Positions 26,583-29,306 of a stretch of 39,732 nt of DNA are shown here, piece by piece. Numbering within the stretch: the first letter of the stretch is position 1; each line of letters starts with the position of its first letter. Position numbers and translations under genes: made by a program. Source of the DNA: Escherichia phage HK97; sequence record NC_002167.1. The stretch is one strand, 5' to 3'. The notes under the pieces were generated by a model. That model had not been told where the DNA came from, did no database searches, and saw only the letters and a program-made list of their open reading frames with translations.

Positions 26583-26597
26583 GCGCTTTGTCAGCGC
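26583..26597 (-). promoter_or_regulatory. nutL boxB hairpin (P22-type)
   Basis: Leftward transcript would carry GCGCUGACAAAGCGC, which I recall as the P22 boxB; lies between pL and N. Confidence 0.5.
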
Positions 26598-26663
26598 CGT
26601 AGATTCATATTCGAATCGTTGTATATCACCGCCCTGGTGAGTAGTGCGTCCTGCTGATGTGTT

Positions 26664-26726
26664 TAGTATCACCGCCAGTGGTATTTATGTCAACACCGCC
26701 AGAGATAATTTATCACCGCAGATGGT
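26664..26726 (-). promoter_or_regulatory. OL1-OL2-OL3 operators with pL
   Basis: TATCACCGCCAGTGGTA, CAACACCGCCAGAGATA, TATCACCGCAGATGGTT match recalled lambda OL1-3; pL -35 TTGACA and -10 GATACT on the minus strand. Confidence 0.85.
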
Positions 26727-26908
26727 TATCTGTATGTTTTTTATATAGATTTATTTTTTTTGCAGGGGTGTGTGGCTTGGGAGGTGATCGAGAGATCTGA
26801 ATTGCGATGTTTAGTGAGTTGTATCTATTAATTTTCAAATAAATACAATTGGTTATGTGTTTTGGGGCGAACGTGAGGCAAAGAAACCCCGGCGCGGTGG
26901 CCGTTTAT

Positions 26909-27559
26909 TTATTGCTTAGGAGCTTGTTGTGATGACGATTGGTTAGTTGGAGCGCTCGTTAATGGTTGCTGTGTCGGTACCTGTATTATAATTGGAGCCG
27001 GGCTGGTTACTGATGGTGACTTGTCATTGCCGGAGATAATCCAACTTGAGGCTAACATCACGCCAGACAGAATCACAGTAACTAAAGTCAAGCCAACGGC
27101 CATCGCCCACTGAGTCGTTGTAAGTCCCGTTTTCAAACCGCCGATTTCACCTTTAATTTCAGCAATACCTCTCTCAATAGAAGAAAATTGCTGAGTATAA
27201 TAGGTTTTAAAGTCAGCTGATTCGCGACGCATTTCCGCAGCAATAGACTCTACCTCTGATTTGTTTTGTGAAAGCTTTGCGTCAAGTTCTTCTCTGGACA
27301 TTCCGCTCACGCTTACCTCCAGGGTATCACTCTTCATCGCTACATCTTCCTTACTTGGGCGCAAACCCGTTTCGTCCATGGCGTATGAAACTCTATTTGA
27401 TACCTTAGCATCAATACCAATACTTTGGTACTGAGATGGATCCCCATAAGGAGAAACGGTTGTCGCTGCTAGGGTTGCACTAACTATAATACTTGGAAGA
27501 ACTGATGATGTTGTTCCTGAGGTAGGTTGAACTGAAGAAACTGGCTTCAGTCTTTCCAT
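26909..27559 (-). CDS. membrane-anchored coiled-coil protein (rex-position module, gene 3)
   Basis: 216-aa ORF; start overlaps upstream stop by 13 nt; central charged helical region, single TM (WAMAVGLTLVTVILSGVMLASSWII), Pro/Ser/Gln-rich C-terminal tail. Confidence 0.6.
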   Translation of the reverse strand: MERLKPVSSVQPTSGTTSSVLPSIIVSATLAATTVSPYGDPSQYQSIGIDAKVSNRVSYAMDETGLRPSKEDVAMKSDTLEVSVSGMSREELDAKLSQNKSEVESIAAEMRRESADFKTYYTQQFSSIERGIAEIKGEIGGLKTGLTTTQWAMAVGLTLVTVILSGVMLASSWIISGNDKSPSVTSPAPIIIQVPTQQPLTSAPTNQSSSQQAPKQ

Positions 27560-27813
27560 AGCCCATTATCCCTGAGAGCTACCTGTAATGATTTTACTAA
27601 TGCAACAGCTTGATCCGGGCTCATTGAGACTGACATGTTAGGGGTCAACTCAACTTTTACTTGGAAGCTATTATTTCCTTGCTCATCAGACTGCATGTGA
27701 TGCTCAAATTCATGGCGGTAAAAAGTAATGATTGTTTCAGCACGATCAGGCGTAATAAGAACTGATGTGGCGGTCATGTGCTGAGGTATGATTTTAATAG
27801 TGTTATCTGACAT
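27547..27813 (-). CDS. small soluble protein (rex-position module, gene 2)
   Basis: 88 aa from ATG 27813 with SD aagga 7 nt upstream (frame stays open to ATG 27954, which lacks an SD); AT-rich. Confidence 0.5.
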   Translation of the reverse strand: MSDNTIKIIPQHMTATSVLITPDRAETIITFYRHEFEHHMQSDEQGNNSFQVKVELTPNMSVSMSPDQAVALVKSLQVALRDNGLWKD

Positions 27814-28005
27814 AAGTATCCTTTTTGTTTCCTTAGTATTTTTTTGCATTGACATCAGAAATAGCGAATCCACAAGAGTATGAGTAAAGCTAATCAGTTT
27901 AGTGATACGGTGACTATTAAAGTGGTAAACCACATCAAAGCTCGCAGAGTGCATACCAGGCTGTCACACATGACAAAGTAACGAGGATGCCTGATCTCAT
28001 AGCGC

Positions 28006-28161
28006 TCAAAGAGACATGCCGATAATGGCATTAACCACGCATGACGCCATAAACACGCCGCCAACGATGAAGCTGGCTTGGTTCTTCCTGGTAGCGCCAA
28101 GAGTCAACAGAACCACTGAAAGGGCAAAAAAAGGTATCGCGATTATGCTGAACGTGTTCAT
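28006..28161 (-). CDS. 51-aa two-TM membrane peptide (rex-position module, gene 1)
   Basis: ATG 28161 with SD GAGG 5 nt upstream; two hydrophobic helices; below the ORF-track size cutoff; 78 nt downstream of cI stop. Confidence 0.4.
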   Translation of the reverse strand: MNTFSIIAIPFFALSVVLLTLGATRKNQASFIVGGVFMASCVVNAIIGMSL

Positions 28162-28238
28162 GTTGACCTCAACTTATTTCGATTCTCCATCACCCTTAAT
28201 CCGCCGCCCCATGTGTTTGTTGTGATCCGTTGCTGGCC

Positions 28239-28952
28239 TTAACCAAACGTCTCTTCAGGCCACTGGCTGGCGATAACTTTCCCCACAACGGAACAACTCT
28301 CATTGCATGGGATCATTGGGTACTGTGGGTTTAGTGGTTGTAAAAACACCTGACCGCTATCCCTGATCAGTTTCTTGAAGGTAAACTCATCACCCCCAAG
28401 TCTGGCTATGCAGAAATCACCTGGCTCAACAGCCTGCTCAGGGTCAACCAGAATTAACATCCCGTCAGGAAAACTAGGTTTGGATCCTGTTGGCGCGGTC
28501 ATGGAATTACCTTCAACCTCAAGCCAGAATGCAGAATCACTGGCTTTTTTGGTTGTGCTTACCCATCTCTCCGCATCACCTTTGGTAAAGGTTCTAAGCT
28601 CAGGCGAGAACATCCCGGCCTGAACATGAGAAAAAACAGGGTACTCATACTCACTTCTAAGTGACGGCTGCATACTAACCGCTTCATACATCTCGTAGAT
28701 TTCTCTGGCGATTGAAGGGCTAAATTCTTCAACGCTAACGTTGAGAATTTTTGCAAGCAATGCGGCGTTATAAGCATTTAATGCATTGATGCCATTAAAT
28801 AAAGCACCAACGCCTGACTGTCCCATCCCCATCTTGTCTGCGACAGATTCCTGGGATAAGCCAAGTTCATTTTTCTTTTTTTCATAAATAGCTTTAAGGC
28901 GACGTGCGTCCTCAAGCTGCTCTTGTGTTAATGGTTTCTTTTTTGCGCTCAT
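28239..28952 (-). CDS. cI: CI repressor (lambda-type)
   Basis: 237-aa ORF nearly identical to recalled lambda cI (…[40 protein letters not shown]…), flanked by OR and OL. Confidence 0.95.
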
Positions 28953-28962
28953 ACGTTAAATC

Positions 28963-29028
28963 TATCACCGCAAGGGATAAATATCTAACACCGTGCGTGT
29001 TGACTATTTTACCTCTAGCGGTGATAAT
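28963..29028. promoter_or_regulatory. OR3-OR2-OR1 operators with pRM/pR
   Basis: TATCACCGCAAGGGATA (OR3), TAACACCGTGCGTGTTG (OR2), TACCTCTAGCGGTGATA (OR1-like); pR -35 TTGACT and -10 GATAAT upstream of cro. Confidence 0.85.
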
Positions 29029-29052
29029 GGTTGCATGTACTAAGGAGGTTGT

Positions 29053-29253
29053 ATGGAACAACGCATAACCCTGAAAGATTATGCAATGCGCTTTGGGCAA
29101 ACCAAGACAGCTAAAGATCTCGGTGTATATCAAAGCGCGATCAACAAGGCCATTCATGCAGGCCGAAATATTTTTTTAACTATAAACGCTGATGGAAGCG
29201 TTTATGCGGAAGAGGTAAAGCCCTTTCCAAGTAACAAAAAAACAACTGCATAA
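29053..29253 (+). CDS. cro: Cro repressor
   Basis: 66-aa ORF with SD aaggagg; [38 protein letters not shown]… as recalled for lambda Cro. Confidence 0.9.
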
Positions 29254-29260
29254 GTAACAC

Positions 29261-29306
29261 CGCTCTTTTCACAATGGACATTCGTCCTACGTCGCTGACA
29301 AAGCGA
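29261..29306 (+). promoter_or_regulatory. nutR (boxA + boxB)
   Basis: boxA-like CGCTCTTTT at 29261-29269; boxB hairpin tCGCTGACAAAGCGa at 29292-29306 with the same GACAA loop as nutL. Confidence 0.55.

What the first reader, a model, noticed from the sequence alone, without database searches (positions are those of the whole stretch)
26583..29306. Mosaic regulatory region: lambda-type operators and cI/cro combined with a P22-type N and nut sites
OL1-3 and OR1-3 and the cI/cro proteins match what I recall for lambda. The N-like protein and both boxB hairpins (GCGCUGACAAAGCGC at nutL, CGCUGACAAAGCG at nutR) match what I recall for P22. The head genes are HK97-type and int/attP are lambda-type. 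The immunity module and the antitermination module therefore have different ancestry, with a junction between OL and N on the left and between cro and cII on the right.
Basis: partly seen in the sequence, partly recalled or inferred. Interest (0 to 1): 0.4.

Follow-up and report, generated by a model that had tools for sequence, protein, structure and literature searches.

The report
Phage HK97's mosaic lambda-type immunity region
This is the early control region of coliphage HK97 (or a near-identical twin): a phage-lambda repressor switch set between antitermination parts of the Shiga-toxin-phage (H-19B) kind, which is a long-published textbook example of phage gene shuffling and not something new.

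Summary
The mosaic is real, but it is already known and one label is imprecise. The window is a complete HK97-type genome and almost certainly HK97 itself. OL1-3, OR3 and OR2 are identical to lambda, and OR1 has one change. cI is 235/237 identical and Cro 65/66. Lambda DNA similarity covers only 26626-26903 and 28243-29267.

N, nutL, nutR and cII belong to the HK97/HK106/mEp234/H-19B/933W lineage (N 97-100% identical). They are not P22's: there is no P22 DNA match, and P22 gp24 aligns only at the arginine-rich motif and the last 33 residues. Both N proteins do fall in Pfam PF25694. The nutL boxB equals P22's nutL boxB 15/15.

The immunity cassette is bounded by two short linkers shared with heteroimmune phages: the PL leader (26626-26659) and the cro end plus boxA (29246-29267).

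rexAB is replaced by three leftward ORFs (26904-28187) that are 100% identical to HK225 and PDP110P1. The largest, gp48, is a coiled-coil membrane protein. Homologues lie downstream of a repressor in all 11 loci examined, and their function is unknown.

45 E. coli genomes carry the whole region at 98-99.8% identity.

The parts
26034..26417 (-). N antitermination gene (127 aa), H-19B/933W/HK97 type
   Evidence: Pfam PF25694 N_peptide, 57.8 bits. 100% identical to mEp234 N and 97.6-99.2% to N of Stx phages. ARM 12-RSRRRER-18, R3, S11, R15, R18 and L108 match published H-19B N features (PMC3526286; PMC4499122).
26583..26597 (-). nutL boxB hairpin GCGCUGACAAAGCGC (5-bp stem, GACAA loop)
   Evidence: Fold -7.1 kcal/mol. 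Identical to P22 nutL boxB. Annotated as boxB in the 99%-identical mEp234 record EF120460.
26602..26617 (-). nutL spacer hairpin GAUUC-GAAUAU-GAAUC
   Evidence: MFE and centroid fold of the PL leader. No canonical boxA lies between PL +1 and boxB (best 5/9).
26626..26659 (-). PL leader 'linker' shared by lambda, this phage and Stx phage AU5Stx1; the left crossover zone. It contains the CACC-N5-GGUG hairpin, and the PL start is at 26658.
   Evidence: Identity 82% to lambda, 100% to HK106, 97% to AU5Stx1. CATCAGCAGGACGC is also conserved in P22.
26660..26727 (-). PL promoter with OL1 (26667-83), OL2 (26691-707) and OL3 (26711-27)
   Evidence: All three operators are identical to lambda. Promoter scan: TTGACA-17-GATACT at 26693-26665.
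26728..26903 (-). OL-distal conserved segment ending in the Timm-like terminator
   Evidence: 88% identical to lambda, 94% to HK542, 99% to HK106, 80% to AU5Stx1. Timm is annotated at the equivalent place in EF120460 and EF120458. The stem is shortened here by a GG deletion.
26909..27559 (-). gp48-like cargo gene (216 aa): disordered N-terminus, long helix 89-142, TM helix 148-177, Pro/Gln/Ser-rich tail
   Evidence: 100% identical in HK225 and PDP110P1. PHROG 5820, unknown function. AF2 model. 203 cluster representatives at E<=1e-3. No specific Pfam or PADLOC hit.
27547..27813 (-). gp49-like cargo gene (88 aa from the start PGAP uses; the ORF is open up to 27954, giving 135 aa); overlaps the gp48 start by 13 nt
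   Evidence: PGAP calls the 88-aa form in E. coli S1. 46% identical partner in Klebsiella phage ST15-VIM1phi2.1. PHROG 26809. AF2 pLDDT 52.
28006..28161 (-). orf51: small protein of 51 aa with two hydrophobic stretches
   Evidence: ORF with GAGG 5 nt upstream of the ATG. The exact sequence is on 772 contigs, and one source names it 'putative membrane protein'. Inside the HK225/PDP110P1-identical block.
28188..28242 (-). 55-bp linker downstream of cI, shared by HK106/mEp234, HK225 and PDP110P1 but not lambda; the right edge of the cargo slot
28239..28952 (-). cI repressor, lambda specificity
   Evidence: 697/714 nt and 235/237 aa identical to lambda (T3A, K71N in ORF numbering). HTH_3 plus Peptidase_S24.
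28953..29052 (.). OR3 (28963-79), OR2 (28986-29002), OR1 (29010-26), with PRM and PR
   Evidence: 99/100 nt identical to lambda; the single change is G>A at 29017 in OR1. PR is found at 29000-29028.
29053..29253 (+). cro, lambda type
   Evidence: Pfam Cro, 120 bits. 65/66 aa identical to lambda (K39N).
29246..29269 (+). cro 3' end plus nutR boxA (CGCTCTTTT, 29261-69); the right crossover zone
   Evidence: Lambda similarity ends at 29267 and AU5Stx1 similarity begins at 29246. boxA matches 8/9.
29276..29306 (+). nutR spacer hairpin GGAC-AUUC-GUCC (29276-87) and boxB UCGCUGACAAAGCGA (29292-306)
   Evidence: Folds. Two hairpins in H-19B nutR are reported in PMC3526286. 95-97% identical to AU5Stx1 and HK106.
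29391..29687 (+). cII (98 aa, non-lambda allele) with a TTGC-N6-TTGC site at 29400-29413 (PRE -35 region) and an oop-type terminator at 29636-29663 (minus strand)
   Evidence: Pfam Phage_CII. 34/103 aligned columns identical to lambda cII. 93-95% nt identity to AU5Stx1 and HK106. CII site annotated in EF120460. Terminator scan.

Best explanation
The region is the immunity and early-regulation region of coliphage HK97 (or a >99% twin). It is built from at least four interchangeable pieces.

1. A lambda-specificity genetic switch: PL/OL1-3, cI, PRM/OR1-3/PR and cro. Sequence identity implies it works as in lambda. CI dimers bind OL and OR cooperatively to repress PL and PR and autoregulate PRM, and Cro binds the same sites. 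A lysogen should therefore be homoimmune with lambda.

2. An N-antitermination 'frame' of the H-19B/933W/HK97 type that brackets the switch. N and nutL lie on the left, nutR on the right. The arginine-rich motif of N (12-RSRRRER-18) binds the two boxB hairpins, which share the 13-nt core CGCUGACAAAGCG. N then modifies RNA polymerase through NusA and its C-terminal domain, so that polymerase reads through the early terminators. One N must recognise both nut sites. The frame is therefore inherited as a matched pair, and the immunity cassette is swapped in or out between the sites.

3. The exchange points are short sequences conserved among heteroimmune lambdoids: the first ~34 nt of the PL transcript, and the cro end plus boxA. 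This fits homologous recombination at linker sequences.

4. A cargo slot lies between the cI stop codon and Timm. In lambda it holds rexAB. Here it holds orf51-gp49-gp48, co-oriented with cI, with no promoter-like site of its own found upstream. I infer that these genes are transcribed with cI from PRM/PRE in lysogens.

Shown here: the sequence identities, the breakpoints, the hairpins, the family memberships and the recurrence of the arrangement. Inferred: immunity phenotype, N specificity, co-transcription of the cargo, and the recombination mechanism.
For: Identity of the window:
- The 156-aa ORF at 25505-25975 is exactly AAF31125.1 / Q9MCQ6 'Gp45, phage HK97'.
- The capsid ORF matches HK97 gp5 (PDB 3QPR) at 845.6 bits over 385 aa.
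- HK225 and HK106 annotators name HK97 gp48, gp49, Cro and gp53 as the nearest relatives of the same genes.
- NC_002167 is absent from the phage collection.

Switch: operators are 101/102 nt identical to lambda, cI 235/237, Cro 65/66. PL and PR are recovered by the promoter scan.

Block structure and breakpoints.

N: Pfam PF25694. 100% identical to mEp234 N and 97.6-99.2% to Stx-phage N. Residues match published H-19B N mutants and its ARM.

boxB: two copies, correctly oriented, against 0.07 expected by chance. Folds.

Recurrence:
- The same N/nut frame surrounds a non-lambda immunity region in AU5Stx1.
- The same lambda switch sits with different N genes in lambda and HK542.
- The same cargo sits next to a different repressor in HK225 and next to a repressor that shares only its C-terminal half with lambda cI in PDP110P1.
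- The whole arrangement is present in 45 E. coli genomes.

Literature: cI-cro co-transfer is reported as a recurrent event in lambdoid phages (PMC9836094).
Against: - No wet-lab evidence here for the immunity phenotype or N specificity.
- OR1 carries one substitution, Cro carries K39N and cI carries K71N. Their effects are untested.
- The Timm-like terminator is weakened in this sequence relative to its closest relatives. Leftward read-through from the cI operon could therefore differ from lambda.
- The original HK97 and lambda-immunity papers (Juhala 2000; Degnan 2007) could not be opened. 'Already described' therefore rests on GenBank annotations, on papers that cite them, and on my memory.
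Confidence: 0.93

Rival explanations
1. The N/nut module was acquired directly and recently from P22 or a P22-like Salmonella phage, as the label 'P22-type N and nut sites' suggests.
For: The nutL boxB is identical to P22's nutL boxB. N and P22 gp24 share Pfam PF25694, a similar ARM and a 67%-identical C-terminal 33 residues. N homologues of 86% identity occur in Salmonella phages such as SPN9CC, and of 70% in epsilon34.
Against: There is no P22 DNA match in N, nutL or nutR at E<=1e-3 with word size 7. Global protein identity is about 30%, with a wholly different central part. P22's nutR boxB and its boxA at nutL differ from those here. 97-100% identical copies exist in coliphages and Stx phages.
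Confidence: 0.03
2. The apparent mosaic is an assembly or cloning chimera of two phages, not a natural genome.
For: Identity changes abruptly at several points.
Against: The complete 3.7-kb arrangement recurs at 98-99.8% identity in 45 independent complete E. coli genomes. Both outer junctions are shared with HK106 and mEp234, which were isolated in Hong Kong and Mexico. The junctions fall in conserved linkers.
Confidence: 0.01
3. There was no exchange. The region descends vertically from a common ancestor with lambda, and N, nut and cII simply evolved faster.
For: Gene order is the same as in lambda. Weak residual similarity exists around boxB and downstream of it.
Against: Identity steps from 97-99% to undetectable within a few bases, while the 'fast' parts are 95-100% identical to heteroimmune Stx phages. 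N belongs to a different Pfam family from lambda N.
Confidence: 0.01

Closest known systems
Coliphage HK97 (AF069529 / NC_002167; Juhala et al. 2000, J Mol Biol 299:27, cited from memory and via PMC3594210)
   Same: Exact gp45 protein, gp5 capsid, genes named gp48/gp49/gp53 by other annotators, a 162-nt ORF left of O (PMC3349717), and a genome length that I recall as 39,732 bp. All of this is consistent with the window being this record.
   Different: Nothing detected. The record itself was not available for a base-by-base check.
Wild lambda-immunity phages HK106 and mEp234 (EF120460/EF120461; Degnan et al. 2007, Mol Microbiol 64:232)
   Same: 99% identical across N, nutL, OL and Timm (25973-26903), and 98.7% across cI, OR, cro, nutR and cII (28188-29898). 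Their GenBank features already annotate lambda operators next to a non-lambda N, boxA and boxB.
   Different: The cargo slot holds hicA-hicB plus one ORF in place of orf51-gp49-gp48. They carry an intact Timm stem and one extra T at the position of 26626.
Phage lambda
   Same: OL1-3, OR1-3, PL, PR, PRM, cI and cro (97-99%), the OL-distal segment and Timm (88%), and int/xis/attP (96.8%).
   Different: N (Pfam PF11438 in lambda against PF25694 here), both nut sites, cII (about 33% aa identity), rexA/rexB (absent here), and the head and tail genes.
H-19B / 933W-type Stx phages (e.g. AU5Stx1 NC_049920; N studied by Neely & Friedman and by Sen's laboratory, PMC3526286, PMC4499122)
   Same: N 97.6-99.2% identical. 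nutL leader 100%, nutR spacer and boxB 95%, cII 93%. Spacer hairpins are present in both nut sites.
   Different: Different repressor, Cro and operators between 26660 and 29245. No gp48/gp49 cargo.
Salmonella phage P22 gene 24 / nut
   Same: Pfam family PF25694. ARM pattern F-x-G-N-x3-R-R-x-E-R. C-terminal LPxVALYAAGxRKSKQxTAR. nutL boxB sequence with the GACAA loop.
   Different: 100 aa against 127 aa. Unrelated central region. No DNA similarity. P22 has canonical boxA at both nut sites and a different nutR boxB.

Membership tests
Lambda immunity group (imm-lambda) | CI and Cro of lambda DNA-binding specificity | tested here: met
   cI 235/237 and Cro 65/66 identical to lambda. The substitutions are T3A and K71N in cI and K39N in Cro.
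Lambda immunity group (imm-lambda) | Tripartite OL and OR operators with lambda sequences and spacing | tested here: met
   Five operators identical and OR1 16/17. The OR intergenic region is 99/100 identical.
Lambda immunity group (imm-lambda) | Reciprocal superinfection immunity with lambda lysogens | not testable with these tools
   Needs plating tests.
P22-type N (Pfam PF25694 N_peptide) | Profile match above the curated cut-off | tested here: met
   57.8 bits against a cut-off of 27.9. P22 gp24 scores 152 bits. Lambda N hits PF11438 instead.
P22-type N (Pfam PF25694 N_peptide) | Close orthology to P22 gene 24 (DNA or full-length protein similarity) | tested here: not met
   No DNA HSP. 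BLASTP aligns only residues 98-127. Global alignment gives 41 identities in 136 columns.
P22-type N (Pfam PF25694 N_peptide) | boxB hairpin with a GACAA pentaloop at both nut sites | tested here: met
   GCGCU-GACAA-AGCGC at nutL and UCGCU-GACAA-AGCGA at nutR. Identical to P22 nutL boxB.
H-19B/933W-type N antitermination system | 127-aa N with ARM 12-RSRRRER-18 and the C-terminal domain including L108 | tested here: met
   The window N has R3, S11, R12-R18 = RSRRRER and L108, as described for H-19B N. 97.6-99.2% identical to N of Stx phages.
H-19B/933W-type N antitermination system | nut sites with an extra hairpin in the spacer | tested here: met
   Spacer hairpins at 26602-26617 and 29276-29287. 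[quoted passage not shown]
H-19B/933W-type N antitermination system | Reduced dependence on boxA, NusB and S10 (Neely & Friedman 2000, recalled from memory) | not testable with these tools
   Consistent with the lack of a canonical boxA at nutL (best 5/9), but function was not tested.
RexAB exclusion system | rexA and rexB homologues between cI and Timm | tested here: not met
   No lambda similarity in 26904-28242. The three ORFs have no Pfam or PADLOC match to Rex.
Known anti-phage defence systems (PADLOC-DB v2) | Profile match of the cargo proteins | tested here: not met
   Only chance-level hits (E about 0.01).

The most novel reading that the evidence does not exclude
The one part not covered by published knowledge that I could find is the rex-slot cargo, orf51-gp49-gp48 (26904-28187). 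gp48 is a membrane-anchored coiled-coil protein. Homologues lie directly downstream of, and co-oriented with, the prophage repressor in all 11 loci examined. These loci carry many different repressors and come from Escherichia, Klebsiella, Citrobacter, Phytobacter, Kosakonia, Yersinia and Sodalis. It could be a widespread, uncharacterised lysogen-expressed module for superinfection exclusion or abortive infection, occupying the position that RexAB occupies in lambda.
Probability: 0.3. Interest if true: 0.45.

Novelty: already known. Interest (0 to 1): 0.1.

Why it matters
The finding itself adds little. The HK97/lambda mosaic was the founding example of 'pervasive mosaicism' in lambdoid phages, and lambda-immunity phages with non-lambda N genes are already annotated in GenBank (EF120455-61).

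The re-analysis does give a base-level picture of how the exchange works. The immunity cassette is delimited by two short linkers, the PL leader and the cro end plus boxA, which are shared among heteroimmune phages. Because N must match both nut sites, the two flanks travel as one functional unit around whatever immunity cassette sits between them.

The practical lead is the uncharacterised gp48 family in the repressor operon. It is a candidate for prophage-encoded host protection and is cheap to test in the well-established HK97 system.

Tried and rejected
- Rfam scan of 25800-30200 at E<=1: only one chance hit to a eukaryotic lncRNA family.
- PADLOC on the cargo proteins: nothing meaningful.
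- Pfam on gp48, gp49 and orf51: nothing above cut-off.
- Pfam on 49 gp48 relatives: only generic coiled-coil families (Baculo_PEP_C, NPV_P10, CCDC90-like). I read these as compositional matches.
- PDB profile search: only coiled-coil fibre proteins at E>=0.007.
- AlphaFold2 of gp48 (pLDDT 51; one long helix plus a TM helix) and gp49 (pLDDT 52) was too poor to justify fold searches, so none were run.
- Plasmid collection: no match to the cargo.
The narrower one gave only 4 loci.
- Composition profile: no clear compositional signature for the cargo.
- Literature: Degnan 2007 and Cumby 2012 are not held. Juhala 2000 and Neely & Friedman 1998/2000 were seen only as references. No paper found mentions a function for HK97 gp48/gp49. 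Searches for an explicit 'HK97 is homoimmune with lambda' statement failed.
- I considered whether TATCACCGCCCTGGTGA at 26624-26640 is a fourth OL operator. I rejected this. Its second half-site matches only 3/9, and its closest relatives (HK106, mEp234, a prophage in E. coli S1 and AU5Stx1) carry an extra T that breaks the good half-site.
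Full report
WHAT THE WINDOW IS. The 39,732-base window starts at a cos-type end followed by terminase genes. Its left 20 kb is 97-98% identical to HK97-like phages HK106, HK75, HK633 and mEpX1. Its right half is a patchwork of pieces shared with HK106, HK544, HK022 and mEp506. The ORF at 25505-25975 is the exact sequence of AAF31125.1 / UniProt Q9MCQ6, 'Gp45, Enterobacteria phage HK97'. The 385-aa ORF at 4028-5185 matches the HK97 major capsid protein of PDB 3QPR/1OHG over its whole length at 845.6 bits. Annotators of HK225 and HK106 name HK97 gp48, gp49, Cro and gp53 as nearest relatives of the genes that are identical here. 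The HK97 RefSeq accession is not in the phage collection. That explains why no phage record covers 80% of the region. I conclude that the window is HK97 or a practically identical genome. From memory, the HK97 genome length is the same figure.

CHECK OF THE OBSERVATION: THE LAMBDA PART. Using lambda's annotated operator coordinates, OL1, OL2, OL3, OR3 and OR2 are present unchanged. OR1 has one change, TACCTCTGGCGGTGATA to TACCTCTAGCGGTGATA at 29017. The cI ORF is 697/714 nt and 235/237 aa identical to lambda. The OR intergenic region is 99/100 identical. cro is 196/201 nt and 65/66 aa identical. PL and PR are the two best sigma-70-like sites in the region. int/xis/attP (21035-22632) is 96.8% identical to lambda.

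CHECK OF THE OBSERVATION: THE 'P22' PART. They are in the sense orientation of the PL and PR transcripts. Their 13-nt core occurs only there in the window, two matches against 0.07 expected by chance. The nutL boxB is identical to P22's nutL boxB. N, however, is not P22's gene.
- BLASTN with word size 7 finds no P22 similarity in N, nutL or nutR.
- BLASTP aligns only the last 33 residues at 67%.
- A global alignment gives 41 identities in 136 columns, with an unrelated centre.
- The arginine-rich motifs do align: RTQFKGNSRSRRRERLKAKAL against KSTFAGNAKTRRHERRRKLAI. None of 2000 shuffles reaches that score.
- Both proteins belong to Pfam PF25694, while lambda N belongs to PF11438.
- P22's own nutR boxB (CCGCCGACAACGCGG) differs.
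- P22 has a perfect boxA at both nut sites. Here nutR has CGCTCTTTT (8/9) and nutL has nothing better than 5/9.
So 'P22-type' is right for the RNA-recognition specificity class and wrong as a statement of ancestry.

WHERE N AND THE NUT SITES REALLY BELONG. The 127-aa N is 100% identical to mEp234 N and 97.6-99.2% identical to N of many Stx1 and Stx2 phages, including the EDL933 Stx phage, phi24B and Min27. It is 86% identical in Salmonella phage SPN9CC, 70% in epsilon34 and about 41% in VT2-Sakai. Published work on H-19B N describes a 127-residue protein with ARM 12-RSRRRER-18, loss-of-function changes at R3, S11, R15 and R18, a C-terminal RNAP-binding domain (residues 101-127), an L108F suppressor, and two hairpins in nutR (PMC3526286; PMC4499122). 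Every one of these residues is present in the window's N. Both nut RNAs fold into a spacer hairpin plus boxB: GAUUC-GAAUAU-GAAUC at nutL and GGAC-AUUC-GUCC at nutR. From memory, Neely & Friedman (2000) reported that H-19B N does not need boxA, NusB or S10 and that its nut spacers carry dyad symmetries. The degenerate nutL boxA fits that, but I could not open the paper.

BREAKPOINTS. Pairwise BLAST and base-level alignments give the blocks below. Each is followed by % identical positions to lambda / HK106 / HK225 / HK542 / PDP110P1 / AU5Stx1.
- N gene, 26034-26417: 0/100/0/1/1/97
- N-nutL leader, 26418-26625: 0/98/0/0/0/100
- PL leader, 26626-26659: 82/100/0/65/0/97
- OL1-3, 26660-26727: 97/100/0/99/0/59
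- OL-distal segment and Timm, 26728-26903: 88/99/14/94/10/80
- Cargo, 26904-28187: 0/0/100/0/100/0
- Linker, 28188-28242: 0/100/100/0/98/0
- Last 26 nt of cI, 28243-28268: 96/100/81/96/100/100
- Rest of cI: 98/100/0/97/49/0
- OR: 99/100/0/99/0/0
- cro up to 29245: 98/100/0/98/0/0
- cro end to boxA, 29246-29267: 86/100/0/86/0/95
- nutR spacer, boxB and PRE, 29268-29390: 0/97/0/0/21/95
- cII: 15/95/0/0/92/93
Lambda similarity therefore stops at 26626 and 29267. Similarity to the heteroimmune Stx1 phage stops at 26659 and resumes at 29246. The overlaps are conserved in all of these phages: about 34 nt at the start of the PL transcript (CATCAGCAGGACGC is also in P22), and about 22 nt spanning the last cro codons and boxA. 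These are the likely crossover sites.

Between Timm and the cI stop codon, lambda has rexB and rexA. The window has three leftward ORFs instead.
- orf51 (28006-28161): two hydrophobic stretches, and GAGG 5 nt before the ATG.
- gp49 (27547-27813): 88 aa as called by PGAP in a prophage; the ORF is open to 27954.
- gp48 (26909-27559): 216 aa, overlapping gp49 by 13 nt.
This block is 99.6-100% identical to HK225, which has a different repressor. It is also identical to Lambdavirus PDP110P1, whose repressor shares only the C-terminal half with lambda cI. HK106 and mEp234 carry hicA-hicB plus one ORF in the same slot, and HK542 carries two other ORFs. The slot is flanked on the right by a 55-bp linker shared by HK106, HK225 and PDP110P1. 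On the left it is flanked by the Timm stem-loop, which HK225 also has.

WHAT THE CARGO MIGHT BE. gp48 has no Pfam, PADLOC or PDB relative beyond generic coiled-coil matches. AlphaFold2 gives only a long helix (89-142) and a transmembrane helix (148-177), with disordered ends. An exhaustive profile search finds 203 cluster representatives at E<=1e-3, mostly 160-260 aa. I examined 11 loci: the window, HK225, PDP110P1, HK542, Klebsiella phage ST15-VIM1phi2.1, and prophage regions of Yersinia intermedia, Kosakonia radicincitans, Phytobacter, Citrobacter pasteurii, Sodalis and Yersinia aleksiciae. In every one the gp48 homologue lies a short distance downstream of, and co-oriented with, a repressor-like gene, with a small ORF immediately upstream of it. 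In the window (orf51) and in Y. intermedia further small ORFs lie between that pair and the repressor. That small ORF is homologous to gp49 only in close relatives: 46% in the Klebsiella phage and none in Kosakonia, Yersinia or HK542. The position implies expression in lysogens. I infer a host-protecting role such as exclusion or abortive infection, but nothing here tests it. I found no paper on these genes.

HOW THE REGION MOST LIKELY WORKS. The lambda-type switch should behave as in lambda (inferred from near-identity). N made from PL binds the boxB hairpins of the PL and PR transcripts through its ARM and converts RNA polymerase to a termination-resistant form, as shown experimentally for the near-identical H-19B N. 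Both nut sites must match one N. The left and right flanks of the immunity cassette therefore form one functional unit, which is why the same pair of flanks surrounds lambda immunity here and a different immunity in Stx phages. cII, with its TTGC-N6-TTGC site at 29400-29413, belongs to the right flank yet drives transcription towards the lambda-type cI. That works because the promoter and its activator travel together.

45 of 5,426 complete E. coli genomes carry 26000-29700 in one piece at 98-99.8% identity. Within 26000-29700, the best match (strain S1) differs from the window at only five places. This excludes an assembly artefact. What it shows is that this mosaic is an established genotype, not that it is unmosaic relative to lambda or P22.

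NOVELTY. The GenBank records EF120455-EF120461 (Degnan et al. 2007) already annotate lambda operators, cI and cro next to non-lambda N, boxA and boxB and non-rex cargo. The HK97 genome paper (Juhala et al. 2000) is the classic description of lambdoid mosaicism (cited in PMC3594210, and PMC9836094). cI-cro co-transfer is a documented recurrent event. The finding is correct in outline, imprecise about P22, incomplete about rex, and already known. Only the function of the gp48-family cargo remains open.

Noticed in passing
window 26904-28187: The rexAB position is occupied by orf51-gp49-gp48. gp48 is a coiled-coil plus TM protein family (203 cluster representatives). Homologues lie downstream of a prophage repressor in all 11 loci examined, across seven genera. 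No known function or defence-database match.
   Followed up: partly
window 26885-26903 (also 26626): The Timm-like terminator stem is shortened to 4 bp. The cause is a GG deletion at 26903 plus a C at 26887 where the E. coli S1 prophage and HK106 have A (HK225 shares only the intact stem). A further single-T deletion at 26626 is also unique to the window. These could be real lab-stock mutations or errors in an old sequence. The fold is no better than shuffled sequence (z = 0.0).
   Followed up: partly
window 7982-7990 (-), 26624-26632 (+), 30974-30982 (+), 36880-36888 (-): The lambda operator consensus half-site TATCACCGC occurs 8 times in the window against 0.29 expected. Four are in known operators. 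The other four are lone half-sites whose partner halves match only 1-3 of 9, so they are probably non-functional. The excess is unexplained.
   Followed up: partly
window 29017; cI codons 3 and 71; cro codon 39: Natural variants of the lambda switch: OR1 G>A next to the central base, CI T3A and K71N, Cro K39N. The OR1 change is also noted in the HK106 annotation ('PR with 1bp mismatch'). Effects on binding are unknown.
   Followed up: no
window 26598-26658 (-): nutL has no canonical boxA (best 5/9), while nutR has 8/9. Lambda has 8/9 (nutL) and 7/9 (nutR), and P22 9/9 at both. GenBank EF120460 labels CGCACTACT as a 'putative boxA'.
   Followed up: partly
window 28243-28268 and L012 (PDP110P1) around locus 4100-4500: The last 26 nt of cI are conserved (81-100%) in the heteroimmune repressor genes of HK225, AU5Stx1 and PDP110P1. 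PDP110P1's repressor is lambda-like only in its C-terminal half, with the crossover near window 28650. This suggests recombination inside the repressor gene between the DNA-binding and cleavage domains.
   Followed up: partly
window 29720-29881 (+): A conserved 53-aa ORF between cII and the O-like replication gene (PHROG 1331, unknown function). The exact sequence is on more than 1000 contigs. It is the 162-nt ORF noted for HK97 in PMC3349717.
   Followed up: no
window 25505-25975 (-): A 156-aa ORF just downstream of N (HK97 gp45, PHROG 1636). It is widespread in E. coli prophages and of unknown function. AU5Stx1 has a co-oriented ORF of the same length at the same place downstream of N, within DNA that aligns to the window.
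   Followed up: no
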